IMG/VR virus record: IMGVR_UViG_3300027541_000229
Source of the DNA: an uncultured virus (IMG/VR IMGVR_UViG_3300027541_000229)
Taxonomy: Duplodnaviria; Heunggongvirae; Uroviricota; Caudoviricetes
DNA: 64,000 bases
Strand: one strand, 5' to 3'
Part shown: positions 38,601 through 62,508 of the stretch, piece by piece
Layout: each line of letters starts with the position of its first letter
How positions within the stretch are numbered: position 1 is the first letter of the stretch
Program-made: the position numbers and the translations under genes
Notes under the pieces: generated by a model
Told to the model about the DNA's origin: nothing
Seen by the model: only the letters and a program-made list of their open reading frames with translations
The model's database searches: none

Positions 38601-41600
38601 GATTCTGTAGATTTATATCTCCCAGCGGACTAGCGATAACCAATGTAGTTCCTGACCAATCTAAATCCAATGATGCACCGAACTGATCGCCTACATTTAT
38701 TGTTTCTACTTTAGAAAGATCGCTGTACTCAGAAAGATTATCTGCACCAATAGTCTGCACTAATCTGTAACCGGTTGATTCTTTTTTGTAAACAAAAACT
38801 TTTCCAGATGGATTCATCGTACTATCGCCAATAGACACCCACGGCAATGTTGTCGGATTGGTTCCGGTATTAGTATATGTGGAATCTGATGTGTCTGGAG
38901 CTAACTTATAGTACAATCCTTCATACTGTACTACTTCACCTTCGAAGTATTCTGTAGTAGAATTCCACACACCTCTGTACTGATCAAAAACCTGTCCATC
39001 ACTAAACGGAGCGCCAACTGCAATAATATCACCTGTATAGCTCATGGCTATCGCCGAGCCATACTGGTCTCCTATCTTTAGCATTTCAACATCACTGTTA
39101 AGTATACCGTGAGCCATAGTAGATCTATCTTGAACTAGTGAGTTGTTCAATGCTAGTTCAGATGGAAGAATCTCGCCAATCTCCCATCCAGTTCCGTTAT
39201 GACTGTATACGTAAACTCGACCGATGCCATCTAAAGATCCAGGAGCTGACACTATCATCGAATATGATGTACCGCTCTTGGCCATCTTAATAGATGAACC
39301 AAATAGTTCCCCGGCTGCCGGTCTTGGGCTTGCAAAAGTTTTATAATAATCCCAACCTTGAGATGTCCTTGTATAAAGAACAATCATTCCCTGTTCTGAG
39401 AATCCATCTCCCCTGGCTTCTCCATAGGCTTCAATGTTTGTTGCTCGGTCCCAATCTTCTGTGTTAAATGTTAAAGTGCTGCCATCAGGTGACACAAACT
39501 TGTTAGGTGTCCATAAAATATCATCATAAAGGACAACATCCTCAAGAGCATAACTCTTTGTAGAACTAAATGGTCCTAGATATGTATTTTTAACACCACT
39601 GGCTAAGGGAACGCCAATAGCCAACCATTGACCGTCTGGACTTACTGTAATGGCCTGACCGAATGATCCTATTGATAATGTTCTAAACTCGATCAGCGGT
39701 GATAATATCTGCTTAGGAGTCAATGCACCGTTAATATCAGAATAAACAACGGCATAGCCCGATCCCGGAATACCAACTATAGATTCTTTTGATCTATTAT
39801 CATAAAAGACTGCTGCACCAGTTCTCAGTGGTGATGTTAAACCATATTCACTGATTTCTCCAAAAGAATATTGTTTGGTTTTTCTAATAACTTCCCACAG
39901 CCCGCTACCATTATCGTCAACCCATAGAGTAGATCCTTCTTTCCACAAAGCTACTTTTTCAGGATCAACCATGTCGTAGGTATCAAATCTAACTTCAGTA
40001 AACAATCCTACATTGGTAACTGTGCTGCCGTCAATAACCGGATCCTGTGCTGCAGGAGTAACAGTAACGCTAATAGTCATATCACTGACTTCAGTAATCT
40101 TATAAAATCCTGTTAGGTTAGGAATCGATCTAAAGCCTACAATGTCGCCCACAGTCAACCCATGGCGGCGATTCATTGTAACAGTAACAGTTAACCCAGA
40201 TTTTACAGCATCAACGACCTTGAGGTTTGCAGCTTCTGAGAATCTCCATACGGTCCAATCAGGTGAATAAAATGTAAGCCAAAAATGTGCGCCTTCAGAA
40301 ACTGTAGAAATGTCTATACCTAATATAGCGTCTGCATTATATAGAGCAAAATCAACTTGAGATGTTGCTACATATCCTGCTGTGTTTTCAGGTTCTGCCT
40401 CTAGACTTAAAGGATTTATGTTTGTAGTATAAGGTGTTGGGGAGATAGTAAAATCACTGCCAATAACTCTATAATAACGATCGCTAGAAACAGACGGAAT
40501 AGAATTTACAAACAGCAGAGGCTGAGGATTTAATGGAAACTCGGATTTTTCTATCTTTATTTCATATTCTTTAAGTTGATCAACACCACCAAAGCGTCCA
40601 ACTCTAAATGCCCACTCTTCATCAAGAACTAATGCCGATTCCGATGAGCGACTTATTTTATCAAAAACTTTCTTGACAGAGTTTATAGTTCCTTTTTCTC
40701 TAATGAATCCTTGATACAACTGGAACTGGGTCACTGGATCTTCTGCGAGATTCTGTAGATATTCTCTAGACTGATATCCCACAGTATGACGTGCAAGCTC
40801 TCGCTGAGTTTCTCCAATGCCTTGTGATTCAACATTAAAATAATCATCAAACTGTTTGATCTTGTAATCAAAGTTTGATAACAGTTGTTTTTCTGGAACT
40901 GTATCTAGTTTAGTCCATAGATTAGTATTGAAAGATTCTGATCCTTCTTGATTAACTTGGCTTACCCAATAGTATTGCTGATAAGCAACAATATCCCCTA
41001 GTCTATAATCTACAAATGGTTGCCATACAGCGATATCAACGTTGTCAAATAAGAAACCCGGACTTGTATAATCGCCGTACCAGTCAGTGGTACGGAATCC
41101 TAGACTCTTGATTCGTTGCTGTCTATATCCGGTTGGTTTATCATAGATGATGTCACTGAACACCGTTTTATCACTGAACACTGTTACGTGTTCTTTTAGA
41201 ACATAATATAATCTAATATAATATATGCCCTCTGTAGTATTGGTAGTTTCAACAGTTATTTCTTGGAACTGTCGATCCACGTTGATATATTGTGGCTGTA
41301 AAGGTTTACCATCACTCTTTAATACCTGATAATCATAAAAGCCATCTAACAGGTTGTCTGCTACTCCAACAGGAGTCTTTATATAGACTTTCTGAGAGGC
41401 TGGACTTAATGTGATAATCGATCCTATAGCCCAGTTATGTCTGGTCCAGAACATGAACTCTTTACAACTAGTGGTCCAGTCTTGGCTTACTTGATTATCA
41501 GGATCATAATTTTCAAATACAAATCCTCTAGATTTGAGATAGGCTTCGTATCCTAGTAGGAAGTTAACTATGTCTTGGATTTCATTTATCTCTGTTCCAT

Positions 41601-44600
41601 AGCTCATTTTGCTAACTGCCGAGAAGTTGAAGTTTCTTCTCTTGAATGCTTCAACTGCTCCAACTAAAGGAAGTTTAGGAAGTTTCTTCCATATAGTCTT
41701 GTTGTTTAGATCATCCGCAGATGAATCTGTATGAGTGATCAAACTCCTATAATAAGTGTTGTTGTTTCTAACGATCACACCGTTAGCATAAGAAGTTCCT
41801 AGCGTCCAATCTGAAAATGTTTCGCTCACTCCGCCAACAGAGATTAATGGATCACCTTGACTAGCCAACGGTTCGTAATAAGGAAAGTATGGATGAAGAT
41901 CATCATATCCTGTAACATACCAACCGTTTAATGTTTTTTCTATGATCACACCACTGTATGATATAGTGGAAATAGGAGCACTTACATTAAAAATAATGTC
42001 GTAGTTTTCTGCAGGAATATAAACTCCTGTAGAAGTAGATTTTGGATTCTTGCTGTCTAACAGATATTTCTGCTGAGCTTTATCAACAAAACCGCCTAGT
42101 CGAGTTGTAAGATTTACATCAATATTTTTTATTTTATTTTCGACTAGATCTAAAGAAACACCTCTAGATTTAGCATAGTCTATCAAGTAGACAACTAATC
42201 CTGCTCCTTGCTGTATACCTGTCTTAGGAACTTTTATATCATTTAAAGTTACAGGAAGATTTGTATTAACATTAACAGTCTGACCGAGATTGTTTAACTT
42301 AACCTGAGAGCGATCAAAGCTGTCTCCTATAAACTCGAAAGGTTTTAATAGGCATAGAGCAATAGTGATAGCAAACGGAAACTCTGAGCTTGACCTCCAT
42401 GCATACTCAACTGGAGATATATCTCCTAACTTAAATGGTCCTCTATTATTGATAAGAACAAAGTCGTTGGCTAGCCCAGACTCAAGCGGGCTTAGAAGCT
42501 TACCTTCTACATCAACAGGAAGATGACTTAGTATTGTTGGTCGAGCATATCTTAGATATGTTCCAGCACGGTCTCCTTCTCGAATGATACCATCTCGTAT
42601 GTCTTCCCACAAAATCAGATTGCCGCTGGTGTATGGAGCAGGTCCATAATATTTTTCCCACCAGATTGGTTTTTGGCTAAATCCTAAGATTTCCCAAGGA
42701 CATCTGTGTGGGCGATCGGTGTCATAGAACCAGTTATACACTCCTCTCCACCATCCAGGTAAGTTTTGCTTACCTGTAGGATCAGTCATATTGGTATAAC
42801 TGTAAGTAAATGTTTCATATTCTGTAAAATAGGTATTGTTGGTGTAATCAATATTTGTATTATTGATCCATTTTAAAAATTCCTGTTCTACAATATTATC
42901 TAAATCATCTTTATTAAAAATAGCATTACCATAATATCCGCCCAAGACAGCATCGATATCAAAAATAGTATGATCATACTCTTGTTTAATATTATTGTAA
43001 ATCCTGTATTCTATCTCTAATAGAAGATCATCTCTGAAATCGCCGTAGGCGACAGTTATACTACCATCGTGCCCTTGTATAACTTCGGTAGGTGTTTTGT
43101 AAGTATCATCTAAAAACTTGCTCGGAGTATATTTCTTGTAAAGACCAAGACTTGTAGGAGTTGGTGGCACAAAGCAATGTGCTGTTGAAACATACTCTCT
43201 TATCTCTACTAGATCATTTTCATTCAGATCTAGAGATATATTAACAAAACCAAAAGTATCGTTGAATGTATAGTCTCGTCCGTGTAGCAACTGATTATCA
43301 TTTAGATATACATAAACTGCTTTCCTAGACAGGGTAGTTAAACTAAATGGCGCAGACAATGCAAAAGTTTTTATTCCAGTATCTTCTACAGTATAAGAAA
43401 TAGTAGAATATGCACCGGAACCGATCATATCAGAATCAGAGAACGGCGAATCACCGTTCTTAGTTCTTGATAGTTCGTTGATAATGTCATCGACAAAATC
43501 TGGAATACTTTCGTTGTATTCTATTTCCAACGCCTTGGTAATAAAGTTACTTTTCCATTCTGTGTATGATCTCTTAGCGTACTGCAGAGATTTAATGATG
43601 TTATTAGTCTTATCACAGAGCAATGCGATCGCAACTGGAGTCAAACCAGAATGTGTTAAAAATCTCTTGGCGTTATCTTGATATCCATCAAGATCTCTAA
43701 GATTAGATTTGCCTGGGATGTTTCCTTGAAACTCAGTATCAAACTCTACAGCAGAAACAATATGATCAATCGCTTGACCATACGTAAATGTAGTCAATGG
43801 AGAGTTTAACGGATTCCTTTCTAGCCCAACGGGTATTTCATAGTAACCTGTTACTGGTTCTAAATCTGTAACAATTTTTACAGATATAATATCATTAACA
43901 GAAAAAGAATCTTGGAAAGTAAAAGTATCTTTATTTCTTGTCCATGGATTATCTGTCAGCTTATCTCCATTGAGATAAAAGTTAATAACTGGTTCAGTCG
44001 TGACCTGCGCCCAATCTATAGTGGTCAACTTTATGGTGTTAGTGGCTTCTTGTATAGTAACACTATCAATTAACGGTTGGATATAGGTCAGGTCTGTAAG
44101 TGTCCAGCCGTTATCGTACCCTCCTGTTGAGTTATCTTTAAAATAACCTACAGCAACTTTTTTAGAAAGAGCTTGTCTATCGATTGTATAGTTTACTGTT
44201 TCAGAACCAAAGTCCCAGTTAAACTGAATATCTCCAACATTATCAATATTGAGATAACTTAAACTGAATCCTAGCTGACTATCTGTCAGACCGTTGCCTA
44301 TCTTGTAGCTAACTAAAGGATTGCCGTTAAAAGAACTAATAGGATATGTTTCCGGATCCGAAAAACTAACATAGTTTTCATCATAGACATCAAACAATGG
44401 AGATTGATTTACAGTAGTCTTGGCCTGACTCTTGACCCAACTCTCTCCGGTAAAATGATACATCAATCCAGAGTTTGATTTGCCGCGGCGAACCAATACA
44501 CCCTGGCCAACTACAGATTGAGAATCTGTAGCTTCTTTGAGTGTAATCTGCGTGTTGTTGCCAAACTTTATAAAATGAACAGTATAGATCTTGTTGTTAG

Positions 44601-46185
44601 CTAAAGAATCAGTATCTGCTACCACTAGTACTCTTGCACCTTCAAACAAAAACTCGCCGTCGACGTTATATCCGGAACTACCTTCTATTTTACTAAAGAT
44701 ATCATCTGTAAAGGTATCGATATAATCAACCTGAGTCTTTGCAATAGAACAGTGGTTGTACAACTGTATATTTGATCTAAACTCTATGATAGGTCGTTTT
44801 GCTCTGAGATTTTCATCAGCAGGAAAATCTTGTCCTCGCTGTGTATAAGCATATTCTAAAACAGATCGATGGAACCAACGATTATACCGTGACCACGGAT
44901 TTGAATCTTGGCTGTTTTTTGATATTGTGATATAATCAAGTTGTCCTGGATATGCAGATGCATCATCAAATGGTTCAGCATCAAACGGTGCATTGTCAAA
45001 CAAAACTTCAGGAACATCTGTAGACAATACCGGAACGATAAGATCAGAAAATCTAGTTAATGTTATAGCTTTTCCAACTCCCTCAACTAACCAAGTATCC
45101 GTTGCATATTTTTCAGGGCTGACCTTGCCCATAAACTCAACAACTAGTCCATTAGTAAACTCTATGCCGTTGCTGCTCTTGTATTGAGATTTACCTAGAA
45201 CATCTTTAGTTACATCGATGTAGGTATTTTCAACTATTGACTGTATTACGAACTGACCCTGTCTATCAAGATTTACTACACTCTGATAAAACAATACATC
45301 AGGTGAATCATAGGGAACTGTAAATGTTAAAGTTCCGTTCTCTATCTTGTTATTTTTTATACCATCGTTGTAATCAAAGATTGAGTTATAGTCGTTGATA
45401 CTGATAAGCTCCCAGTCTTGACTATCAACATTGATAGTGCTGCCGTCTGGTAACACATCAACTTTAGCTCTCCAAAGTTGATCATTGTAAAGAACTACTG
45501 ATCCAGCCTTATATCCAAGATTTGGATTGTAGACCAATGAACCTAGATCAGGGTTGGTCCTGATCACAAATGCTTCACTAGGAGCATTGATCTTAAACTT
45601 ATAGGTTTGACCTCTGTACAGTGTTATCTTAGGATTGTTTGTAACACCATCAGGACTGAAAACCCAAGATGATCCTAACCCTAGTTCTACCTTATAAGTG
45701 CTGGTTATTTTTGCCGACTGTCCGTAGATCTGCAACGGAGGCGGACCACTTGGTTGCCAATAGTATTCTCTAAAGTTAATAAACTTGTCCCAATCAATAG
45801 GGGGATTCCAACTATAGTGTTCTTGGCTAGTAGTTAGATAATCTCTATCAACTTCGTTTCCAAAGAACTTTATCTGATTCTTTACATCTAAATAATCATA
45901 AAAATTCTGTATGGTTTCATTTTCTCTAAAAATGACTCCTGGCTCGACTTGATATCTACTACGTAATGTATTGTCTGTATCAAGATATATGTCGCTACCA
46001 CGATAAGTTTTTCCATATCTTCGACCGACATAACCGGCAGTTTTTTGTAAGACTCCTGGCTGTACCAAAGGATCGACCACGGCGGCCATGAACTTATTAT
46101 TTGCCGGTGTTTGGAAAACATTCGGCAATAGATCTTTAGTCTTTCTTATTGGAAGTTGACTTTGTGGATAAATTTTATCTGCCAT
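32608..46185 (-). CDS. Giant (4525 aa) baseplate wedge-like structural protein (gp7 position)
   Basis: Uninterrupted 13.6 kb ORF directly after gp6. Contains FG-GAP-like propeller repeats, aromatic CBM-like modules and GxGY..P.V...G.G repeats. Confidence 0.75.
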   Translation of the reverse strand: MADKIYPQSQLPIRKTKDLLPNVFQTPANNKFMAAVVDPLVQPGVLQKTAGYVGRRYGKTYRGSDIYLDTDNTLRSRYQVEPGVIFRENETIQNFYDYLDVKNQIKFFGNEVDRDYLTTSQEHYSWNPPIDWDKFINFREYYWQPSGPPPLQIYGQSAKITSTYKVELGLGSSWVFSPDGVTNNPKITLYRGQTYKFKINAPSEAFVIRTNPDLGSLVYNPNLGYKAGSVVLYNDQLWRAKVDVLPDGSTINVDSQDWELISINDYNSIFDYNDGIKNNKIENGTLTFTVPYDSPDVLFYQSVVNLDRQGQFVIQSIVENTYIDVTKDVLGKSQYKSSNGIEFTNGLVVEFMGKVSPEKYATDTWLVEGVGKAITLTRFSDLIVPVLSTDVPEVLFDNAPFDAEPFDDASAYPGQLDYITISKNSQDSNPWSRYNRWFHRSVLEYAYTQRGQDFPADENLRAKRPIIEFRSNIQLYNHCSIAKTQVDYIDTFTDDIFSKIEGSSGYNVDGEFLFEGARVLVVADTDSLANNKIYTVHFIKFGNNTQITLKEATDSQSVVGQGVLVRRGKSNSGLMYHFTGESWVKSQAKTTVNQSPLFDVYDENYVSFSDPETYPISSFNGNPLVSYKIGNGLTDSQLGFSLSYLNIDNVGDIQFNWDFGSETVNYTIDRQALSKKVAVGYFKDNSTGGYDNGWTLTDLTYIQPLIDSVTIQEATNTIKLTTIDWAQVTTEPVINFYLNGDKLTDNPWTRNKDTFTFQDSFSVNDIISVKIVTDLEPVTGYYEIPVGLERNPLNSPLTTFTYGQAIDHIVSAVEFDTEFQGNIPGKSNLRDLDGYQDNAKRFLTHSGLTPVAIALLCDKTNNIIKSLQYAKRSYTEWKSNFITKALEIEYNESIPDFVDDIINELSRTKNGDSPFSDSDMIGSGAYSTISYTVEDTGIKTFALSAPFSLTTLSRKAVYVYLNDNQLLHGRDYTFNDTFGFVNISLDLNENDLVEIREYVSTAHCFVPPTPTSLGLYKKYTPSKFLDDTYKTPTEVIQGHDGSITVAYGDFRDDLLLEIEYRIYNNIKQEYDHTIFDIDAVLGGYYGNAIFNKDDLDNIVEQEFLKWINNTNIDYTNNTYFTEYETFTYSYTNMTDPTGKQNLPGWWRGVYNWFYDTDRPHRCPWEILGFSQKPIWWEKYYGPAPYTSGNLILWEDIRDGIIREGDRAGTYLRYARPTILSHLPVDVEGKLLSPLESGLANDFVLINNRGPFKLGDISPVEYAWRSSSEFPFAITIALCLLKPFEFIGDSFDRSQVKLNNLGQTVNVNTNLPVTLNDIKVPKTGIQQGAGLVVYLIDYAKSRGVSLDLVENKIKNIDVNLTTRLGGFVDKAQQKYLLDSKNPKSTSTGVYIPAENYDIIFNVSAPISTISYSGVIIEKTLNGWYVTGYDDLHPYFPYYEPLASQGDPLISVGGVSETFSDWTLGTSYANGVIVRNNNTYYRSLITHTDSSADDLNNKTIWKKLPKLPLVGAVEAFKRRNFNFSAVSKMSYGTEINEIQDIVNFLLGYEAYLKSRGFVFENYDPDNQVSQDWTTSCKEFMFWTRHNWAIGSIITLSPASQKVYIKTPVGVADNLLDGFYDYQVLKSDGKPLQPQYINVDRQFQEITVETTNTTEGIYYIRLYYVLKEHVTVFSDKTVFSDIIYDKPTGYRQQRIKSLGFRTTDWYGDYTSPGFLFDNVDIAVWQPFVDYRLGDIVAYQQYYWVSQVNQEGSESFNTNLWTKLDTVPEKQLLSNFDYKIKQFDDYFNVESQGIGETQRELARHTVGYQSREYLQNLAEDPVTQFQLYQGFIREKGTINSVKKVFDKISRSSESALVLDEEWAFRVGRFGGVDQLKEYEIKIEKSEFPLNPQPLLFVNSIPSVSSDRYYRVIGSDFTISPTPYTTNINPLSLEAEPENTAGYVATSQVDFALYNADAILGIDISTVSEGAHFWLTFYSPDWTVWRFSEAANLKVVDAVKSGLTVTVTMNRRHGLTVGDIVGFRSIPNLTGFYKITEVSDMTISVTVTPAAQDPVIDGSTVTNVGLFTEVRFDTYDMVDPEKVALWKEGSTLWVDDNGSGLWEVIRKTKQYSFGEISEYGLTSPLRTGAAVFYDNRSKESIVGIPGSGYAVVYSDINGALTPKQILSPLIEFRTLSIGSFGQAITVSPDGQWLAIGVPLASGVKNTYLGPFSSTKSYALEDVVLYDDILWTPNKFVSPDGSTLTFNTEDWDRATNIEAYGEARGDGFSEQGMIVLYTRTSQGWDYYKTFASPRPAAGELFGSSIKMAKSGTSYSMIVSAPGSLDGIGRVYVYSHNGTGWEIGEILPSELALNNSLVQDRSTMAHGILNSDVEMLKIGDQYGSAIAMSYTGDIIAVGAPFSDGQVFDQYRGVWNSTTEYFEGEVVQYEGLYYKLAPDTSDSTYTNTGTNPTTLPWVSIGDSTMNPSGKVFVYKKESTGYRLVQTIGADNLSEYSDLSKVETINVGDQFGASLDLDWSGTTLVIASPLGDINLQNQGSAYVLRLTNNIFRVKQKLESFEDYPNEYFGQSICISGNTEKIVIGAKNTPYHESVTFFSKDEGTTTFDHGATRFSKDYGFAGAVYVFERKADVYFLAEKLSADLSSNESFGYSVYCTPDNILVGSPDYYSNVLNQKTGHVRLFKKLENVNSWEILSQRSLVVDIEKLKSISLYDDVNNKKIQDLDIIDPAKGKILNEAEQELTFKVPYDPAVYSIGTDLQTVIPSQEWTDHHVGKLWWNTSTAKWMYYEQGDTSYRVGNWSRQVPGSSIDVYEWVKTKLLPSEWAALADTNNGIANGISGQPLYPNDDVYSQRILYNASTGAATETYYYYWVKNKTILPTNVIGRNISASTVASYINNPIGSGTAFVGIAAENTLLLYNFKSIISTDYALLNIEYKKDTSSLNPVHNEYQLIREGSTQGVPSYKLETKWIDSLVGYDSVGNRVPDPGLPAKLRYGIEFRPRQGMFINRLTALRLTVDNLNAFLSTYPLTDSLDFTYLNLVDPAPNSQLNLYDVAVDTDIDLETVSTTRVEPAILQVNIINGQVDTIDIVSKGFGYKVVPPVIIDGDGELAAAEATIDSQGRIISVTVTTKGRKYSYASASIRPFSVLVNKDATANNFWGIYAYNSDKKTFYRTRTQAYDTTRYWSLQDWWLTGYSSVDRIVKEIPNISYLGFVTTYVGDMVRIKEYASGGWAVLLKTSEGSSNPSDDWMLVGREKGTVLLEPSLYDPTVGGIGYDNNKSYDTAFYDLENAKELRNILRAVKDNAYNLGFGDQWSSLFFVAVRYVLTEQKYVDWMFKTSLVTATHNVGAFEQKLNYKNDNLASFQDYINEVKPYRTTVREYISRYNTLETTGLSTSDFDLPPAYNVSEGKITSVTETQETIQRYPWKWWLDNHRYSITEIRLSNPGSEYNSPPTVIIDGDGTGATAKAYISNGSVSGVELLTAGSGYTRASIKLVGGNGNSTDIATAIPVLGDSKTRTFNLSLRFDRVNKESSYSTFTKTDTFVAEGNNAVFKLSYAPSNNKNKINILRNGNVVYKDEYSVKIYKEGIDNYSLLKGSVIFVSAPNKGDNIVITYEKNDELLYAVDRINKYYLTESSSPTASGMLGKELNQLMTGLDFGGVQVQGTTFEVTGGWDALPWFSDSWDSVESSNDIYFRADGSTASYTFDAPPAAGQIYNIYIKRNGDTQFIRIDDPYFNPAQDSSMQTNPHAEIPTFIGDGSTSVIMLTPYLSLNAGDTLVFRQIESDGSVTINDSNILDTKISGGTLAAMSGAYSTASGTAAEEIVLEGGKFISPEQVPAPEENVPGQVLDSLSIKVFNNTRSGATPLNHRTIYSDGITLTYKIGQKIIENSSLLVYINKIKKTETIDYSIDYKDQEITLNSLAPAGNIIEIISLGIGGHNLLDYQEFVADGDTSLFLTDANYTDTTSIFVTVNGIYKETAFVNSTGVVDSQNRTLVQFGIKPTLGDVISILVLGSENGNVLDGYGVVRINQQVFNYEGSTRTFSLNHSVTEDPKLVSQIGANFNNVLNASAASSMIVEVNGKALKGPDSVYFVYDGVTKDFVLGEDPYTGPGAVLTSNISVYINDELKTFIQDYVYDGTSKTITITKSLTKGDVIKIETNFISDYKIENNSLVLLDTISLVDGDTIGVTWFNEYTSMDLISDEYTGGKVQYRLSHSPISVSYVWVYKNGDRLSQDVDYYVDQDRSLIYLKNKTTEDDNIKILLFGSQIYRLPSGYEIYKDMLNVYHFKRYSQGMDVVLAKDLNYFDTSLEVTDSTELSDPIPSRNIPGIITINNERIEYLSKVGNVLSKLRRGSLGTSIATLHAKGSYVVDVGIKETVPYNETQDRTDFTSDGKSDDSTIGTAQTIGPLEFTPSKGTRSIWYKNTIPSDFGPCDQIEVFVGGRRLRKDPLQVFDETLGAEGSGKYKTLEAEFSVDGTTPYIRLTETVPANTLITVIRKLGRTWYDRGENTVTRGVTLLENTTPIARFIAEKTTKIPE

Positions 46186-55573: not shown

Positions 55574-56419
55574 ATGACTATTCCAAAAATAAAATATCTA
55601 ACAAATAAAGATCTCCTCAGAGAGATACACCTTAGTAAAAATACATATTGCAGTTTCGATAAGCCTGAACATCACGAATATGATTTGATACTGCCCAGTC
55701 TAGACAAAATCAATATTAGAACTATAGCAGAAGCCAAGAGAAATAAGGCTTCTAAGCTCAGTAAGCGAGCCTATGAAGCTGCCCAAGCAGCAGGTGGCAA
55801 AAAACTAAGCCCAAAAGATTTTGAAGTAGATTACAAAAAAGTAGCTAAGGTCGATGTAGTGTTTAGGATCATGACTTTCGAGCATATCCCGTTAGCACCA
55901 GGAAGAAAAAAGACTCTTAAAAATACTGCCGACAGCCACGAAAAAATCAACTTTCCTCCATTCCAACATTGGAAGTTTGACGACAACGATAACCTTATCT
56001 GCGTAGGTAAAAGCCACTGGAAAGGTGGGCTTGTCAAAGGTGTTTACAGCAAGGACCACGGAAAGATGACTGACAATCTTGCCCGCATGTTCTTGAAGCT
56101 CTGTGATCGTTATGCTACTCGCGGCAACGTCCGTGGCTATACCTACAATGATGAAATGAAGGGCCAGGCCATTTTGCAGCTCACACAGATAGGACTACAG
56201 TTTGACGAATCTAAATCAGATAATCCGTTTGCTTACTATACTGCTGCTGTCACTAATAGTTTCGTTCGTATCATTAATATTGAGAAGCGGAATCAAAATA
56301 TCCGAGATGATATCTTAGAAATGAACGGAATGACTCCTAGTTGGACTCGACAAAATAGTGGCAGTTCTACAGCACCAGCAGCACCAGCAGCCCCTGTAAG
56401 CAGTGATGATTGGGATTGA
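55574..56419 (+). CDS. gp55: Late-transcription sigma factor, T4 gp55-like
   Basis: Y..NKDLL.EI, N.RGYTY.DEM...A, FD..KS.NPFAY.T....NSF.R.I..EK. Confidence 0.85.
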   Translation: MTIPKIKYLTNKDLLREIHLSKNTYCSFDKPEHHEYDLILPSLDKINIRTIAEAKRNKASKLSKRAYEAAQAAGGKKLSPKDFEVDYKKVAKVDVVFRIMTFEHIPLAPGRKKTLKNTADSHEKINFPPFQHWKFDDNDNLICVGKSHWKGGLVKGVYSKDHGKMTDNLARMFLKLCDRYATRGNVRGYTYNDEMKGQAILQLTQIGLQFDESKSDNPFAYYTAAVTNSFVRIINIEKRNQNIRDDILEMNGMTPSWTRQNSGSSTAPAAPAAPVSSDDWD

Positions 56420-56444
56420 CTTGATTCAAAAAGAATTGTACACT
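56416..56444 (+). promoter_or_regulatory. Sigma70-type promoter for gp47/gp46
   Basis: TTGACT (56416-21), 17-nt spacer, TACACT (56439-44), then a GGAG RBS. Confidence 0.65.
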
Positions 56445-56466
56445 ATTAGTGGAGTAGACAAAATCA

Positions 56467-57471
56467 ATGTTTAAAAAAGTTGCCTGTTTTACAGACATCC
56501 ATTTTGGATTAAAATCTGGTAGTAGGATCCACAATCAAGACTGCGAAGATTTCGTAGATTGGTTCTGCGAAACTGCCAAACAAGAAGGTGCAGAAACCTG
56601 TATCTTCCTTGGTGACTGGCATCATAATCGATCAACGACTGATGTTAGTACCATGAACTATACTGTTAGCAATCTAGAAAAACTAAACAACAGTTTTGAT
56701 CATGTATATCTGATCATGGGCAACCATGATGAATACTACAAGGACAAACGTGAAATACACAGCCTAGAGTTTGCTAGACTGTTTCCTAATATCACGGTAG
56801 TGAACCAAACCATAACTGATGGCGATGTAACTATCATGCCATGGCTTGTTGGTGACGAGTGGCAGAAGATTCCTAAGATCAAGAGCCGTTATATGTTTTC
56901 GCATCTTGAGCTTCCGCATTTTTATATGAACGCCATGGTGCAGATGCCAGACCACGGTCAGTTGCAGTCTACACACTTTGCTAATCAAGAATATGTGTTT
57001 ACAGGGCATTTCCATAAACGACAGACCAAAGGCAATATCGTTTACATCGGCAATGCGTTTCCGCACAACTATGCAGATTCGTTTGATGACGATCGAGGTA
57101 TGATGCTGCTTGAATGGGGTAAGGAGCCTGTTTATAAGACATGGCCTGGTCAACCCATTTATAGGACCTATAAGCTAAGTCAAATCATTGATACTCCCGA
57201 CAAGCTATTGCGTGAAAAGATGCATTGTCGTGTTACTATTGACTTGCCTATCACTTTTGAAGAAGCTAACTTTATCAAAGAACAGTTCATGCCACAATAT
57301 AATCTGCGTGAACTGATGCTTATTCCTGAAAAAGTAGAAGTTGAAAGTAATGCTGTAGCGATAGATCTTAAGTTTGAAAGCGTCGATACTATCGTCATGA
57401 ACCAAATCAATGCTATCGAAAGCGATACCTATGACAAAAAACTGTTACTGGAGATCTATAGAGACCTATGA
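56467..57471 (+). CDS. gp47: Recombination nuclease, Mre11/SbcD-like (T4 gp47)
   Basis: Metallophosphoesterase motifs DIHFG, FLGD, GNHD and GHFH. Confidence 0.92.
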   Translation: MFKKVACFTDIHFGLKSGSRIHNQDCEDFVDWFCETAKQEGAETCIFLGDWHHNRSTTDVSTMNYTVSNLEKLNNSFDHVYLIMGNHDEYYKDKREIHSLEFARLFPNITVVNQTITDGDVTIMPWLVGDEWQKIPKIKSRYMFSHLELPHFYMNAMVQMPDHGQLQSTHFANQEYVFTGHFHKRQTKGNIVYIGNAFPHNYADSFDDDRGMMLLEWGKEPVYKTWPGQPIYRTYKLSQIIDTPDKLLREKMHCRVTIDLPITFEEANFIKEQFMPQYNLRELMLIPEKVEVESNAVAIDLKFESVDTIVMNQINAIESDTYDKKLLLEIYRDL

Positions 57472-59249
57472 TAAAGATTAAAAATCTAACAGTTAGAAAC
57501 TTTATGAGCGTGGGCAACCAAACCCAAGCTATCGACTTTGACCGTGGACAGCTGACCTTAGTCTTAGGTGAAAATCTAGATCTAGGAGGTGATGACTCTG
57601 GCGCCCGTAACGGAACAGGCAAAACTACAATCATCAACGGACTGAGCTACGCTATCTATGGTCAAGCCCTAACTAACATCAAGCGTGATAATCTTATCAA
57701 TAAGATTAACAGCAAAGGTATGTTGGTTACAGTTACCTTTGAAAAAGATGGTGTTGAATATCATATCGAACGTGGACGAAAACCTAATCTTCTCAAGTTT
57801 AGTGTAAACGGAGAGGAGCAAGATCTTGAAAATGCCACTGACGAAAGTCAAGGCGACTCTCGAGAAACACAAAAAGCTATCGAAGAAATATTTCCAATGA
57901 CCCATGAGATGTTTAAACATCTTGTGGCGCTGAATACCTATACTGAACCGTTCCTTAGTATGAAGGCTGCTGATCAACGAGCCATCATTGAACAGCTATT
58001 AGGTATTACTCTGCTCAGTGAAAAAGCAGAAAATCTCAAAGAACAAGTTAAACTAACCAAAGATGCTATCAACAGTGAAAACACAAGGATTGAAACTGTT
58101 AAAGCATCTAACGATCGCATACAACAAAGCATCGAAGCACTAGAAAGAAAACAAAAACTGTGGGAAGAACAAAAGACCAAAGCAGTCACTGACCTACAGA
58201 AAAGCATCGATGTACTGTCAACTATTGATATTGAGCAAGAGATCTCAAATCAACGTGCTCTAGAAGAATGGAATAAGAATAAAAAGGAACGTGATAGAGT
58301 ACAGGCTCTGTTGGCTAAGTCTATAGCCACACTAGAAAAAGAACAAAAGACTCTTAAAAAACTAGAATCTGAGTTGGTCTTGTTAGCTGAACACAAGTGT
58401 CATAGCTGTGGTCAGGATCTGCATGACCACAAGCACGAAGAAATGATGACTAATAAGGTCAAACAGATCGATGACGCACAGTCCTTTATAGATAACCATG
58501 CCGATGATCTAATGAAACTGCAAGGCGAAATGGATCTACTAGGAGAACAAACTGATTGTCCTAAGGTTGTCTATGAAAATCTAGAAGAAGCACTTAATCA
58601 TAAGAACACTATCGAAGGCCTTACTAAAGATCTACAGACTAAAACTTCTGAAGTAAACCCCTATCAAGAACAGATCGAAGAACTTAAGAAAACTGCGGTA
58701 CAAGAGATTGATTGGGATCAACTAAATGAACTAGTACGAGTTAAAGAGCATCAAGAGTTTCTATACAAACTACTCACTAACAAAGATAGTTTTGTACGCA
58801 AACGCATCATTGATCAGAATCTAGCGTTCTTAAATCAGCGATTGACCTATTATCTCGATAAGATTGGTCTGCCTCATATCGTCGAGTTTCAAAATGACCT
58901 AAGTGTCATCATTACACAGCTAGGTCAAGATCTAGATTTTGATAATCTAAGCCGAGGAGAACGTAATAGGTTGATACTAAGTCTAAGTTGGGCGTTCCGT
59001 GATGTGTGGGAGAATCTATATCATAACATCAACTTGCTGTTTATTGACGAGTTAGTAGATAGCGGCATGGACGCCAGCGGTGTTGAATCTAGTATCGCTG
59101 TATTAAAACGCATGACTCGTGAACGCGATAAGAATGTGTTCTTGATCAGCCATAGAGATGATCTAACTAATCGTGTAAACCATGTGTTAAAAGTTATTAA
59201 AGAAAACGGTTTTACTAGTTATAGCAATGACGTGGAGATCGTAGCGTGA
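57468..59249 (+). CDS. gp46: Recombination ATPase, Rad50/SbcC-like (T4 gp46)
   Basis: Walker A NGTGKT, coiled coil with CHSC hook, LSRGE signature, Walker B FIDE and ISH. Confidence 0.92.
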   Translation: MIKIKNLTVRNFMSVGNQTQAIDFDRGQLTLVLGENLDLGGDDSGARNGTGKTTIINGLSYAIYGQALTNIKRDNLINKINSKGMLVTVTFEKDGVEYHIERGRKPNLLKFSVNGEEQDLENATDESQGDSRETQKAIEEIFPMTHEMFKHLVALNTYTEPFLSMKAADQRAIIEQLLGITLLSEKAENLKEQVKLTKDAINSENTRIETVKASNDRIQQSIEALERKQKLWEEQKTKAVTDLQKSIDVLSTIDIEQEISNQRALEEWNKNKKERDRVQALLAKSIATLEKEQKTLKKLESELVLLAEHKCHSCGQDLHDHKHEEMMTNKVKQIDDAQSFIDNHADDLMKLQGEMDLLGEQTDCPKVVYENLEEALNHKNTIEGLTKDLQTKTSEVNPYQEQIEELKKTAVQEIDWDQLNELVRVKEHQEFLYKLLTNKDSFVRKRIIDQNLAFLNQRLTYYLDKIGLPHIVEFQNDLSVIITQLGQDLDFDNLSRGERNRLILSLSWAFRDVWENLYHNINLLFIDELVDSGMDASGVESSIAVLKRMTRERDKNVFLISHRDDLTNRVNHVLKVIKENGFTSYSNDVEIVA

Positions 59250-59866
59250 ACATCAACAGTAGAATCATAGCTTTGTCAAACATGACCCTTCTTAGGGCAG
59301 AAGTTCCTGTCAATCTTTTAAGGATAATGTTAGATGAAATAGATCAAATAGAAAAAGACGAGGGGTCTGCAGAAGAAACTAAGTCTGGACTATCTTCTCC
59401 TGGCGTTCCTAAGCACTATAGATTTACCAAGTCTACAGAAGATCTACTAAAGGAGTATATTTTAGAATGTACTCAAATGTATAGAGAAAGTTGTCACTAT
59501 TTAAAGACCTTTGATTCTCCTAAAGTTGAACCGCAATATTATTGCGAACGTCCATGGATTAACTTTCAAAGAGCTGGAGAGTTTCTTCCTAATCATATGC
59601 ATGGCGGTGTACTAAGTTATACCATATGGCTAAGGATTCCGGAAGTCATTGACGATACTAAAGATCCATTCTCTGGACAACTAGAGTTTACCTACACAGA
59701 TATGCTAGGAAGAACTCAAGGTGCTACTATGGGTGTTAACAAATACAGCGTTGGACAGACTATGTTATTTCCTAGTCTACTAAGACACTGTGTATATCCA
59801 TTTAGCAACTCTGACGAAATACGAATATCTGTATCAGGTAATGTGTTTCTTGGACAAGAACCGTGA
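59246..59866 (+). CDS. Putative 2OG-Fe(II) oxygenase
   Basis: WIN....GE..P.H.H...LS...W, G.LEF, FPS.L.H.V.P and RISVSGN. Confidence 0.75.
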   Translation: MNINSRIIALSNMTLLRAEVPVNLLRIMLDEIDQIEKDEGSAEETKSGLSSPGVPKHYRFTKSTEDLLKEYILECTQMYRESCHYLKTFDSPKVEPQYYCERPWINFQRAGEFLPNHMHGGVLSYTIWLRIPEVIDDTKDPFSGQLEFTYTDMLGRTQGATMGVNKYSVGQTMLFPSLLRHCVYPFSNSDEIRISVSGNVFLGQEP

Positions 59867-60093
59867 GTACAGAATCACACGACAAGATGATTGCTGCTTT
59901 TCAAGAATATTTCAAGTGGCAAGAACGATTTGAATACAAGCACAGCGACGAAGCTGGCATTAAGGCACGATTTTGGCTATCAGAAATACGCAATGAGGCA
60001 TCAAAAAGGCGAGTAGAAATACAAGAAAAACGCAAGGAAAGGCGCAAAGCCAGAAAAGGCATGAGAGGCAAACCACTGTCTATAACTAAATGA
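59863..60093 (+). CDS. Small basic protein, possibly Hc1-like DNA-binding
   Basis: F......AG.KAR..L.EI...A..RR.EIQ pattern and a K/R-rich tail. Confidence 0.5.
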   Translation: MSTESHDKMIAAFQEYFKWQERFEYKHSDEAGIKARFWLSEIRNEASKRRVEIQEKRKERRKARKGMRGKPLSITK

Positions 60094-60528
60094 GTGCAGT
60101 GGACATATCAAAATCAACCCGTAGAAGAAATACCTGAAGGCTACATTGGCTTCGTTTATCTCATCACCAACACAACCACCGGACAGAAGTACATAGGCAA
60201 GAAACTAGCACAGTTTAAACGTACTAAACCACCACTCAAAGGCAAAAAACTTAAACGCAGAAGCACAGTAGAAAGCGATTGGCGCGATTACTGGGGTTCT
60301 AGCGATAGGTTAAACGCAGATGTCCAAGCATTAGGTCCGGAAAACTTCACCCGAGAAATACTCTACTACTGTAAATCTAAGGCAGAAATGGGCTATTTAG
60401 AGGCTAGAGAACAGTTTGAACGCAGAGTTTTAGAAACTGACGAGTATTATAATGGCATTATAAACGTCAGAGTAGGCGGTTCAAACATACTTAGGCAGCG
60501 TCTAGAAGAGCATAAAAAGGCCAAATAA
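60094..60528 (+). CDS. Stand-alone GIY-YIG-family endonuclease (Seg/EndoII-like), 144 aa
   Basis: GFVYLITN...G.KYIGKK, Y.GSS, F.REIL, conserved Glu (YLEA.EQ) and terminal YN. Confidence 0.8.
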   Translation: MQWTYQNQPVEEIPEGYIGFVYLITNTTTGQKYIGKKLAQFKRTKPPLKGKKLKRRSTVESDWRDYWGSSDRLNADVQALGPENFTREILYYCKSKAEMGYLEAREQFERRVLETDEYYNGIINVRVGGSNILRQRLEEHKKAK

Positions 60529-60539
60529 TCGCCAAAAAA

Positions 60540-61007
60540 ACCCGCACCGGTGACTGTTATGGTGCCCGAAATCCGCTCTGATGTGTGGCGGTAAGGAAGC
60601 TCTACCTTGGTGAAGAGCGACTCAACCACTATCCTTAACAGGACGTTGATAGCAAAGACCTTGCTGTTTGGTTGTTTTTGAGAGCGAAATAAGGCAAAAT
60701 GAGGGGAGAAAAACCCCACGTATACGTAAGTGATAGCAGATTTACGTATGCCGCCGTTGTATAAAGACGGAGCTCGAGGTACCGGACAACCGCCTCTGTA
60801 ATGCTCTACTGCTGTGTGACTTGCCGAACTCGGATAAAGCTCAAACTTTTAGCCCGGAAACGGGCTAAGTGTGACCATTAGAATCTGGATAATGCTAAAC
60901 TTTCCGCTTCGCGGAAAAAAGATTTTTAGATCATCTAGATAAAAATCTAAAAAAAGAAAAAATGCGCTGAGCGTAAGCGAAAGCGCAAACGAGCGTTAGC
61001 TCGTTTT
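60540..61007 (+). ncRNA. Candidate large structured non-coding RNA (or structured ssDNA element), family unassigned
   Basis: ~490-nt gene-free gap with more than 10 stems read by eye, GNRA loops, G-U pairs, a possible pseudoknot and a terminal hairpin plus T4. Confidence 0.55.
60987..61007 (+). terminator. Possible intrinsic terminator
   Basis: AAACGAGC-GTTA-GCTCGTTTT; the T-tract is short. Confidence 0.35.
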
Positions 61008-61012
61008 ACCGA

Positions 61013-61018
61013 TAAATA
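61013..61018 (+). promoter_or_regulatory. Late-promoter core TAAATA
   Basis: GATAAATA 5 nt before ATG 61024. Confidence 0.55.
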
Positions 61019-61023
61019 AACAT

Positions 61024-62508
61024 ATGAATACTTTTCTGCTTGAACAACATATGGCTGATTCTCGAGAAATACTAAGAGAATCCTGTTATTACCTAACTCT
61101 AGATCAAAGAAGGATTGTAGAAGGCTACTACCGCGACATGCTTCCACTGATCGAAGCATCATTAACCGCTGATCAGATCACACAGATATTTGGTGAGATC
61201 GAAAAGCAAAGTATCGCAGGTGGACAAAGCAGAACAGTCATTGGTGCTGGCAAAGATGCTATCAAGAAAGCAGATGAAATCATCAACAAAGCAGGACGTT
61301 GGCTACAGGACACTACTCCTGTTAAAGCATTTGATCAAAAGTTTGAGGACCTAAAAGCCAAGGTCGCTGAGAAGTTTCCAGATCTAGCAGAAAAAACCGC
61401 GGCCTTAGGTGAGTGGGTCAAGGCCAATCCTGGTAAATCAGCAGCAGTCATCGGCATACTCACAGCACTAGCTTCACTAGCAGGTGGTCCTGTAGGCGGT
61501 GCTATCGCTGGTCAGGTCTTGCGTGGTGCCAATGAACTGCTCAAAGGTGAGAAACTATCCACTGCTATTGGCAAAGGTATCAAGACAGCGGCTCTGGGTT
61601 ATCTATCTGGTAAAGCCTTTCAAATGTTGGGCAACTGGATGGCTGGATTCCGTGAGCAGTCTATACCATTTGGTCCTGAGGATGCAGGACTTGAACAGAT
61701 CAGTTGGGACGCTAGTAAAACACTAAGAGCTCCAGGCATGGAGTGGACACAGACCACTCAAGGATTCAATGCCTTAGTTAAACCTGAAGAAGCCAGTGCT
61801 ATCCGTGCTGCGATGAATCTAGTTAAATCCGGAGGTGATGGTGCTGCTGAAGGTTTTGATCAACTTAAAAATATAGCAGACATAGTTAGAAGCCAAGAAT
61901 ATACGTCTAGCATGGATCAACTAGTCCAAGGTGCATGGAAGGCTGCTAAGGATAATGACAGCCTACTACAGTTTATCAATGCTACCAAGACTGGCATGCA
62001 GGCTGCTTCGCAGGGTGCAGTGGCAGCAGCTGGAGCAGCAGCACCAGCTAAACAAGAAAGTTATTATCTACAGACTCGTCCACTCAGCGAAGGACAGGTC
62101 TATATGATCGTGAATCGTGTTCTTACTGAAGCAGGATTCTTGGACAAGGCCAAGGAGCTAGGTGGCAAGGCTCTAGGCGCAGTGACCAAAGGTGTTGCCT
62201 GGGCAGGCAAACAGGCCACTGAAAAGGTCACATCCGCCAAACTATTAGCTGCATGGAAGCTAGAAGGTTCGCCTACAGACTCTGAGCAGCTGAGAAAGTT
62301 CCTACAGAACTATGGCGGCATCGATCCTAAGATCGTGGATCAGGTCTACACAGACATGAAACTGCCTGTAGGACCTCAGGAACCTACGCTAGATCCTGTC
62401 AAAGCTACCAGTGCATACATGCAGATCAAAGACCAAGTATTAAAGTTAAATAAGAAACAGCAGAAGCGTATCATGGCATACCTGCAAAAAGACCTAGGAA
62501 CCGCATAA
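61024..62508 (+). CDS. Putative virion/internal head protein with Gly/Ala-rich hydrophobic segment
   Basis: 494-aa ORF with several L/I-x-E sites and the segment AAVIGILTALASLAGGPVGGAIAG. Confidence 0.6.
   Translation: MNTFLLEQHMADSREILRESCYYLTLDQRRIVEGYYRDMLPLIEASLTADQITQIFGEIEKQSIAGGQSRTVIGAGKDAIKKADEIINKAGRWLQDTTPVKAFDQKFEDLKAKVAEKFPDLAEKTAALGEWVKANPGKSAAVIGILTALASLAGGPVGGAIAGQVLRGANELLKGEKLSTAIGKGIKTAALGYLSGKAFQMLGNWMAGFREQSIPFGPEDAGLEQISWDASKTLRAPGMEWTQTTQGFNALVKPEEASAIRAAMNLVKSGGDGAAEGFDQLKNIADIVRSQEYTSSMDQLVQGAWKAAKDNDSLLQFINATKTGMQAASQGAVAAAGAAAPAKQESYYLQTRPLSEGQVYMIVNRVLTEAGFLDKAKELGGKALGAVTKGVAWAGKQATEKVTSAKLLAAWKLEGSPTDSEQLRKFLQNYGGIDPKIVDQVYTDMKLPVGPQEPTLDPVKATSAYMQIKDQVLKLNKKQQKRIMAYLQKDLGTA

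What the first reader, a model, noticed from the sequence alone, without database searches (positions are those of the whole stretch)
60081..61007. Compact GIY-YIG nuclease coupled to a ~480-nt highly structured non-coding region: candidate nuclease-RNA system
Seen: a 144-aa GIY-YIG protein consisting almost only of the catalytic domain is followed directly by the only large gene-free gap in the window. The gap is filled with stems: GCACC/GGTGC 60544-65; CCGC/GCGG 60573-91; GCTCT/AGAGC 60599-618; a multi-way junction closed by CAACCA/TGGTTG 60623-74 containing TCCT/AGGA and ATAGCAA/TTGCTGT; GGGG/CCCC 60703-17; a 12-bp GTATACGTAAGT/ATTTACGTATGC stem 60720-51; CCGT/ACGG; nested GAGC..GAGG..CGG-ACAA-CCG-CCTC..GCTC 60770-806; and TTAGCCCG-GAAA-CGGGCTAA 60849-68. 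G-U pairs read on the + strand. A late-promoter variant (TATAACTA, 60081-88) precedes the gene and a hairpin plus T4 ends the region, suggesting one transcription unit. Known: GIY-YIG homing endonucleases such as I-TevI carry extra C-terminal DNA-binding modules, and other small nucleases pair with adjacent ncRNAs (IscB/TnpB-omegaRNA, HEARO). Inference: the RNA may be a scaffold, guide or substrate for the nuclease, or an undescribed large phage ncRNA.
Basis: partly seen in the sequence, partly recalled or inferred. Interest (0 to 1): 0.85.

Follow-up and report, generated by a model that had tools for sequence, protein, structure and literature searches.

The report
Large phage RNA shared with satellites
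The gap after this small nuclease gene of a giant T4-like freshwater phage encodes a real, heavily knotted RNA followed by DNA hairpins; the same unit sits without the nuclease in small bacterial mobile islands, where a replication-initiator gene can take its place, so it most likely serves as an RNA-primed start site for DNA copying rather than as a guide for the nuclease.

Summary
The structure is real. The gap holds a + strand RNA of about 365 nt (60529-60895) with four pseudoknots supported by covariation and two 7-nt boxes that always change together. A cluster of DNA-type hairpins follows (60900-61007). The first 140 nt are Rfam Polynucleobacter-1 (function unknown); my searches found no description of the rest. 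In these ~350-kb T4-like phages the unit always follows the SegE-type GIY-YIG gene (74 of 74 loci). But 20 chromosomal copies in 17 of 151 Polynucleobacter genomes have no nuclease nearby, cultured phages carry the nuclease without it, and no nuclease residue tracks the boxes. The bacterial copies lie in small integrative islands with phage-type late promoters, phage-type virion-protein N-termini and a T4-type clamp loader: probable satellites. In related islands the same slot holds a rolling-circle Rep gene. Best reading (0.5, inferred, untested): an RNA-primed replication origin, ColE1/T4 R-loop-like, copied by satellites. A nuclease-RNA complex, with the nuclease supplied in trans to satellites, is not excluded (0.17). 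The scan noted this RNA family and an origin idea before on other DNA; the Rep swap and late-promoter link come from my calls.

The parts
59863..60093 (+). 76-aa basic ORF upstream of the nuclease; no family match
60083..60088 (+). Promoter-like box TAACTA (TANNTA class), 11 nt before the nuclease start; probable promoter of nuclease plus RNA (inferred)
   Evidence: 57 of 59 relatives vs 2.8% background
60094..60528 (+). 144-aa SegE-type GIY-YIG nuclease: catalytic domain, basic beta-hairpin (residues 40-60), C-terminal helix
   Evidence: PF19835 E 5.5e-36; phrog_447; T4 SegE prob 96.6; model pLDDT 92; I-TevI domain Z 8.3, rmsd 2.7, 82 aligned
60529..60677 (+). RNA 5' domain: Rfam Polynucleobacter-1 (60539-60677) plus pseudoknots 60529-35/60607-13 and 60540-42/60549-51
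60703..60815 (+). RNA core: hairpin 60703-17; long hairpin 60720-51 whose loop pairs with 60809-15; stems 60770-73/60803-06 and 60776-79/60793-96; pseudoknot 60756-60/60786-90
   Evidence: G-U far above A-C on the + strand
60827..60839 (+). Twin box 1 (ACTC + 7 variable nt)
   Evidence: same base as box 2 in 75 of 75 at three variable positions; 80 of 80
60849..60868 (+). Hairpin between the boxes, variable length
   Evidence: 1115 WC, 55 G-U, 2 A-C
60882..60894 (+). Twin box 2 (ATCT + the same 7 nt)
60900..61007 (.). Hairpin tail with DNA-type loops (60901-17 with GAA loop on the - strand; 60963-86 GNNA; 60988-61005 GNA-type); candidate single-strand initiation site (inferred)
   Evidence: profile finds it in islands and the island profile finds it here, E 1.2e-7
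61013..61018 (+). TAAATA late-type promoter of the next gene
61024..62508 (+). Variable downstream gene; relatives here start with a shared MK/R-I-x-E-I type N-terminus (virion-internal protein, inferred)
   Evidence: 40 of 51

Best explanation
The unit is a transcription-activated, RNA-primed replication origin. SHOWN: a conserved multi-pseudoknot RNA, two matched 7-nt boxes and a DNA-type hairpin tail travel together in the phages and, without nuclease, in small integrative islands, in a slot that related islands fill with a rolling-circle Rep gene. INFERRED: a phage promoter (the TANNTA box before the nuclease in the phage, TAAATA in the islands) makes the RNA; folding of the upstream part lets its 3' part stay annealed to the template as an R-loop; the two boxes must match because one RNA segment has to pair at either DNA copy (primer slippage or translocation) or both bind one factor; the 3' end primes leading-strand synthesis by the phage replisome; the displaced strand exposes the hairpin tail for helicase/primase loading. 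The islands are satellites that carry this origin behind a phage late promoter, so they copy themselves only in infected cells. The nuclease is most likely a co-transcribed neighbour of the gp55-gp47-gp46 block; a processing role at the origin is possible.
For: Slot swap: DUF6641 <- TAAATA slot -> small tyrosine recombinase holds the RNA, a small ORF plus another RNA, an unknown ORF, or an HUH Rep (L371, L372, L373, second island of L365; L369 has the same position next to DUF6641); L287 passes Pfam REP_ORF2-G2P at 27.9 bits, cut-off 27.8, L269 E 2.9e-4, L286 and L369 no Pfam hit but HUH and Tyr motifs align. RNA-bearing islands showed no Rep, primase or helicase hit among their core genes but carry a T4 gp44-type clamp loader (phrog_168 E 1.8e-22; matches the phages' own gene at E 6e-21). 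TAAATA precedes the RNA in 15 of 15 islands and precedes small ORFs with phage-type N-termini in 10 of 15. The tail has DNA-type features (39 of 102 GNNA loops with a pyrimidine at position 3; GNA triloops; almost no G-U) while the upstream part has RNA-type G-U excess. One copy per genome in 5 of 5 long phage records. T4 origins use promoter-made R-loops and lie near strand switches (PMC3016281, passages); the unit lies within about 5-10 kb of a divergent switch in the window and 3 long records (syntenic, so one observation).
Against: No replication was measured. GC skew follows gene direction and shows no origin. The tail profile finds nothing in 5 of 5 Rep-bearing regions, and those islands mostly lack the clamp-loader block, so the swap may only mark a payload slot. 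Two island core genes (c3, c4) and DUF6641 have no known function and could be the real initiator. T4 R-loop origins need no particular sequence or folded RNA. Homology of the island core to the phage core rests on shared topology read by eye: the phage covariance model and core profile did not find it (0 of the island loci; 0 of 12). In phages the RNA never lost its nuclease neighbour (74 of 74).
Confidence: 0.5

Rival explanations
1. Nuclease-RNA complex: the RNA is scaffold and the twin boxes direct or license cutting by the small GIY-YIG (a dimer, one box per subunit). Islands make the RNA late in infection to borrow or to titrate the phage enzyme.
For: 74 of 74 RNA-first phage loci have the nuclease within 1.4 kb upstream at 43-94% identity; 62 of 66 nuclease-first loci have the RNA by profile, 2 more by eye; the RNA starts at the stop codon and shares the promoter; the protein lacks SegE's C-terminal half and has a basic hairpin; Tyr, Tyr, Gly, Glu, Asn of the active site are invariant.
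Against: No SegE match in 9 of 9 RNA-bearing bacterial genomes, positive control rings; none in 124 island loci, 853 kb. The same compact nuclease lacks the RNA in cultured phages (gap 0-206 nt in 8 of 8). Cargo ORFs of 257-308 aa intervene (6 of 74 are 1.1-1.4 kb apart). Boxes change 29 times on the nuclease tree with no residue tracking them. No extra genomic copies of the box beyond chance (1-3 vs 0.6-1.2 expected).
Confidence: 0.17
2. Free-acting RNA (ribozyme, RNA-only assembly, or decoy/regulator of a phage or host protein); the islands use it against the phage; the tail is a separate DNA signal.
For: Four pseudoknots exceed what an R-loop needs; own promoter and no ORF in islands; weak, sub-threshold likeness of the core to Rfam cow-rumen-2 (16.8 bits, cut-off 66); two identical single-stranded boxes suit a dimeric RNA-binding protein (inference).
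Against: The tail stays attached across phage types and island types A and C (9 of 9, 12 of 12, 4 of 5); the Rep swap is unexplained; no RT or Nop gene in 4 records.
Confidence: 0.2
3. Packaging signal or packaging RNA: the locus marks DNA for the phage terminase and the islands copy it to be packaged.
For: Late-type promoters and virion-type N-termini in the islands; satellites need a packaging signal (established knowledge); jumbo phages do transduce integrase islands (PMC12595487, abstract and first part read).
Against: Rep-bearing islands would need it too but lack it; contig ends in the gap are scattered over 36-403 nt, not at one site; no DUF6641 relative was found in viral contigs.
Confidence: 0.13

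Closest known systems
Polynucleobacter-1 RNA motif (Rfam RF01718; Weinberg et al. 2010, PMC2864571: table row and supplement snippets seen)
   Same: 60539-60677 matches at 67.4 bits; island copies score 75-104 bits.
   Different: The motif is only the first 140 nt of a ~480-nt unit; the core, twin boxes, tail, phage context and islands are not in the passages I saw. The paper's table lists it as possibly cis-regulatory.
ColE1 RNA II preprimer with downstream primosome-assembly site (R-loop role seen in PMC5333043 passages; structural details recalled)
   Same: Long folded transcript with own promoter, no Rep needed, followed by ssDNA-type hairpins.
   Different: No sequence likeness tested; here pseudoknot-rich, with twin boxes, phage promoters; no antisense RNA I found or sought in depth.
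T4 R-loop origins oriF/oriG (PMC3016281, passages)
   Same: T4-like phage, promoter-driven RNA, near a transcription strand switch; T4 oriF's primer is a gene's transcript.
   Different: T4 needs only a promoter and an unwinding element; no conserved folded RNA.
HEARO / IscB-omegaRNA and TnpB systems (PMC9755519, passages)
   Same: Small nuclease next to a large structured RNA.
   Different: GIY-YIG, not RuvC/HNH; fixed core-genome locus; no variable spacer; each partner occurs alone.
Phage satellites: PICI, PLE (recalled; search listings only) and jumbo-phage-transduced integrase islands (PMC12595487)
   Same: Small tRNA-targeted tyrosine-integrase islands with cargo, no virion genes; that paper notes inovirus Gp2-like proteins in its islands.
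   Different: Different core (DUF6641, second recombinase, clamp loader), phage late promoters, and a phage-derived RNA in the Rep slot. Mobilisation not shown here.
T4 SegE and I-TevI GIY-YIG endonucleases
   Same: Catalytic domain; like T4 SegE it lacks the I-TevI helix after YIG.
   Different: 144 aa against 205 and 245; no C-terminal DNA-binding part; fixed position, not a mobile homing gene.

Membership tests
Polynucleobacter-1 RNA (RF01718) | Score above gathering threshold over the whole model | tested here: met
   67.4 vs 37 bits, model 1-141
SegE-type GIY-YIG (PF19835) | Profile match and conserved active-site residues | tested here: met
   124 bits vs 25; Y22, Y33, G35, K37, E103, N120 invariant in 29 sequences
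GIY-YIG homing endonuclease (I-TevI, SegE) | C-terminal DNA-binding module | tested here: not met
   Only a 13-residue helix follows the domain
OMEGA/HEARO RNA-guided nuclease | RuvC/HNH effector | tested here: not met
   GIY-YIG fold
OMEGA/HEARO RNA-guided nuclease | Obligate gene-RNA cassette with locus-dependent spacer | tested here: not met
   Each occurs alone; fixed locus; ends conserved
OMEGA/HEARO RNA-guided nuclease | RNA-dependent cleavage | not testable with these tools
   needs biochemistry
TIGR-Tas | Nop-domain protein and tandem array | tested here: not met
   PF01798 in 0 of 4 records, 2 near-complete, controls ring; one RNA copy per genome
Retron / DRT | Linked reverse transcriptase | tested here: not met
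   PF00078 in 0 of 4 records, controls ring; RT-14 match 24.5 vs 48.1 bits
ColE1-type RNA-primed origin | Promoter, long folded RNA, downstream ssDNA hairpins, no own Rep | tested here: met
   architecture only
ColE1-type RNA-primed origin | Persistent R-loop and RNA-to-DNA transition | not testable with these tools
   needs experiment
ColE1-type RNA-primed origin | Antisense copy-control RNA | not tested
   a sigma70-like site on the - strand lies inside the nuclease gene, at chance level
Phage satellite (the islands) | Integrase, att repeats, small size, no virion genes | tested here: met
   integrase in 13 of 15 regions; tRNA-Phe 3' repeats of 49 and 43 nt flank L236 and L238
Phage satellite (the islands) | Helper-dependent excision, replication, packaging | tested here: inconclusive
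   phage-type promoters and N-termini; not found in viral contigs
cow-rumen-2 RNA (RF02947) | Score above gathering threshold | tested here: not met
   16.8 vs 66 bits, E 4.2

The most novel reading that the evidence does not exclude
The RNA and the GIY-YIG together form an RNA-directed replication initiator: the twin boxes set where the nuclease nicks DNA or trims the primer, doing the job of a rolling-circle Rep. Satellites replaced their HUH Rep gene with the RNA alone and borrow the nuclease from the infecting jumbo phage. This would be the first RNA-directed GIY-YIG enzyme I know of and a new way to start replication.
Probability: 0.12. Interest if true: 0.95.

Novelty: new variant of a known kind. 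Interest (0 to 1): 0.72.

Why it matters
It gives a 2010 orphan RNA motif its full length, its setting and a testable job. Structured RNAs that start replication are known mainly from ColE1-type plasmids; one in abundant uncultured jumbo T4-like phages, copied by a family of islands in a cultivable freshwater genus, would extend that principle and define a satellite family of lytic jumbo phages. The islands are ~7-10 kb and lie in sequenced chromosomes, so RNA, boxes and tail can be tested without the phage isolate's genetics. The twin boxes, which change together dozens of times with no complementary partner in the RNA, are unexplained under any reading.

Tried and rejected
RNA-seq: 22 river metatranscriptome runs hold part of the region; 4 were laid, contigs only. 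One covers the whole locus including 60538-60817, with own-strain contigs at depth 5-13 on both gene and gap; three have no cover of the gap. This shows neither a discrete RNA, its strand nor its level. GC skew in three long records: follows gene direction, uninformative. Complementary partner for the boxes inside the RNA: none among top covarying pairs. Third genomic box copies: at chance level. Nuclease residues tracking the boxes: none; best normalised MI 0.3-0.66, explained by clade. Island-type RNA patterns in viral contigs: 0 hits in three exact-pattern scans; DUF6641 relatives in viral contigs: none. Covariance model R1 of the phage core does not reach island types and barely reaches phage type 2, so its silence on cultured phages is weak evidence. 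My impression by eye that L369 keeps the tail after its Rep gene was not supported by two profiles (the satellite-profile lines were void and redone in 132). RF01718 outside the genus: none new in 151 genomes of the family. TAAATA is not much enriched over whole islands (0.69-1.64 vs 0.31-0.99 per kb); only its fixed position counts. tRNA/tmRNA: none in the window. PDB sequence searches: no useful hit; Foldseek no match at E <= 0.001, top rows I-TevI. A histone-H1-like label for the 76-aa ORF and a likeness of the boxes to phiX174/pC194-type nick sites are recalled only; the first found no Pfam support, the second was not tested. Literature searches found no paper on the full RNA, on DUF6641 or on these islands; subscription journals are mostly missing, the 2017 motif paper's supplement (PMC5737381) could not be read and the text notes of the 2010 supplement gave no description passage; either may say more about gene context.

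Full report
SETTING. The window is part of a T4-like phage: late sigma gp55, gp47 and gp46 lie at 55574-59249, then a 2OG-Fe(II) oxygenase, a 76-aa basic ORF and the 144-aa ORF of the finding. Relatives with the same locus include near-complete records of 345 and 355 kb. No assembly is held for the window.

THE PROTEIN. It matches Pfam SegE_GIY-YIG (E 5.5e-36) and phrog_447, mislabelled 'NAD synthetase'. A model (pLDDT 92) is closest to the I-TevI catalytic domain (Z 8.3, rmsd 2.7, 82 aligned). It aligns with T4 SegE over residues 19-120 (probability 96.6), lacks SegE's C-terminal half and has a basic hairpin at 40-60. Active-site Tyr, Gly, Glu and Asn are invariant in 29 sequences. The family is in 499 records of cultured phages. 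In 8 of 8 annotated ones that I opened, at 39-67% identity, the next gene starts 0-206 nt after it (a ninth record has no annotation). So compactness does not imply an RNA partner.

THE RNA IS REAL. 60539-60677 is Rfam Polynucleobacter-1. In 80 relatives found by protein the gap is mostly 420-555 nt and the gene after it varies; 62 of 66 loci with enough DNA match a core, box or tail profile, two more carry a divergent form by eye, and two distant ones (51%, 43%) carry none. Mutual information on 75 non-redundant sequences (from 98 with the core motif; 5 of 103 dropped for lacking it) gives Watson-Crick covariation in nearly all stems. For the core on 40 sequences, 88.9% of cells pair against 71.4% shuffled (0 of 500) and 34-49% when slid; the two pseudoknots pair at 96.7% and 99.5%, and the figure includes one mis-registered hairpin at 60.9%. 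A further pseudoknot joins 60529-35 to 60607-13 (score 13.2 vs 10.5 +/- 0.3, 62 sequences), so the RNA starts at the stop codon. G-U exceeds A-C on the + strand from the 5' domain to the hairpin at 60849-68 (for example 138 vs 7). G-T is also tolerated in single-stranded DNA, so 'RNA' rests also on the promoter evidence below.

TWIN BOXES. ACTC plus 7 nt (60828-38) and ATCT plus 7 nt (60883-93) carry the same base at variable positions: 75 of 75 at three, 74 of 75 at a fourth (the window is an exception there). In a DNA-pattern scan that did not force identity, the variable dinucleotide matched in 80 of 80 loci (80 of 120 had long flanks). The box type changes 29 times on a tree of 84 nucleases, with no residue tracking it. 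The constant ACTC/ATCT difference argues against plain gene conversion (inference). No complementary partner or third copy was found.

THE TAIL LOOKS LIKE DNA. In 60900-61007 one hairpin favours the - strand (A-C 27, G-U 14; GAA loop there), one has GNNA loops with a pyrimidine at position 3 in 39 of 102, and the last is almost purely Watson-Crick with GNA triloops. That such loops are especially stable in DNA and typical of single-strand initiation sites is recalled, not tested.

LINKAGE IN PHAGES. RNA-first, 74 of 80 loci have the nuclease upstream; the other 6 are too short. In 6 of the 74 it lies 1.1-1.4 kb away; 257-308-aa cargo ORFs were seen between in four (output cut for part of the rest). 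RNA and nuclease identities correlate weakly (Spearman 0.25, 44 loci), and L109 has an RNA 79-83% like those of nucleases only 56-60% like its own. A TANNTA box lies 8-16 nt before the nuclease start in 57 of 59, so nuclease and RNA probably share a transcript.

THE RNA WITHOUT THE NUCLEASE. RF01718 passes its cut-off in 17 of 151 genomes of the genus of G002 (record title: Polynucleobacter), at 21 places, one being a phage contig. The others are full-length where the contig allows, with twin boxes and tail, and no nuclease within 1.5 kb. SegE is absent from 9 of 9 such genomes; the phage contig rings as control. In 15 wider regions the RNA lies divergent from DUF6641 (15 of 15), with a small tyrosine recombinase, two unknown genes, an ATPase and an integrase (13-14 of 15). 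The ATPase is a T4-type clamp loader that finds the phages' own gene. tRNA-Phe repeats flank two of the islands. TAAATA, the phage's late-promoter form, precedes the RNA in 15 of 15 and precedes small ORFs starting like the phage's variable downstream proteins in 10 of 15 (reading these as late promoter and head-targeting signal rests on T4 knowledge, recalled). Of 80 metagenomic DUF6641 loci, 61 were long enough: 38 carry this RNA type, 3 a second, 8 a third, 12 were unclassified; the boxes match over 5 nt in 38 of 41 (detection required 5 of 7 matches); no GIY-YIG in 124 island loci. Phage and island tails find each other by profile; the cores do not but share the same pairing scheme by eye, with compensatory changes between types.

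THE SLOT. Between DUF6641 and the small recombinase, behind the same TAAATA, some islands carry an HUH rolling-circle Rep instead; one passes Pfam REP_ORF2-G2P, one is at E 2.9e-4, two have no Pfam hit. Others carry an unknown ~150-aa gene. Rep islands lack the tail by profile (0 of 5) and mostly lack the clamp-loader block.

MECHANISM. An island with phage-triggered promoters, no initiator among its recognised genes, and a phage-derived RNA where relatives have Rep is most simply a satellite carrying its helper's origin. T4 origins are promoter-made R-loops (PMC3016281, passages) and ColE1 is the plasmid precedent (PMC5333043, passages). I put an RNA-primed origin at 0.5, a free-acting RNA at 0.2, a nuclease-RNA complex at 0.17, a packaging signal at 0.13. 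All steps after the comparative facts are inferred; skew gave no support and the transcript data are inconclusive.

EARLIER NOTES AND NOVELTY. Unchecked notes of this scan describe the same RNA family, its independence from the nuclease and a ColE1-like reading on other genomes, and a structured RNA with shared promoter boxes in a small mobile element. I saw the ColE1 suggestion before my origin tests; it is not independent support. Nine literature searches (listed under Tried and rejected) found only the 2010 motif table. I class it as a new variant of a known kind: known 5' motif, known principle if an origin, but undescribed architecture, twin boxes and satellite family.

Noticed in passing
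L236-L249, L215, L371-L381 (DUF6641 islands): A family of ~7-10 kb integrative islands (integrase, DUF6641, small recombinase, two unknown genes, clamp loader) with phage-type late promoters and virion-type N-termini: probable satellites of jumbo T4-like phages. No paper holds the term DUF6641.
   Followed up: yes
L262, L264, L266, L270, L276, L326, L334, L354, L370: Island type C: a ~100-125-aa basic ORF with no family match followed by a different structured RNA ending in the same tail; mirrors the phage's gene-RNA-tail layout. Candidate RNA-binding partner.
   Followed up: partly
L263, L265, L268, L274, L278, L284, L285, L289, L360, L365: Island type D: short repeats rich in GTAAC/GTTAC-like words after TAAATA, then an unknown ~150-180-aa gene; possibly a further initiator with iterons.
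   Followed up: partly
L368 upstream of DUF6641: An island RNA sharing a GAGCCCAGT motif with the marine phage RNA type (L051, L083, L085), suggesting repeated capture from different phage groups; by eye only.
   Followed up: no
window 60720-60814: Sub-threshold Rfam cow-rumen-2 match (16.8 bits) reproduces the loop, linker and inner stems of the core; that motif may be a distant fragment of this family.
   Followed up: partly
L001-L080, gap region: 20 of 80 contigs end in the gene's end or the gap against 2 within 500 nt upstream: a conserved-to-variable boundary that breaks assemblies, perhaps a recombination hot spot.
   Followed up: partly
L016: The RNA 5' domain appears deleted or rearranged while core, boxes and tail are kept.
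   Followed up: no
L078, L084: Short divergent version with different twin boxes and a reduced tail.
   Followed up: no
window 32608-46185: 4525-aa ORF on the - strand, probably a tail or baseplate protein; not examined.
   Followed up: no
L237, L241, L243, L245, L247, L248: 17-22-nt palindromes repeated several times in and around the islands.
   Followed up: no
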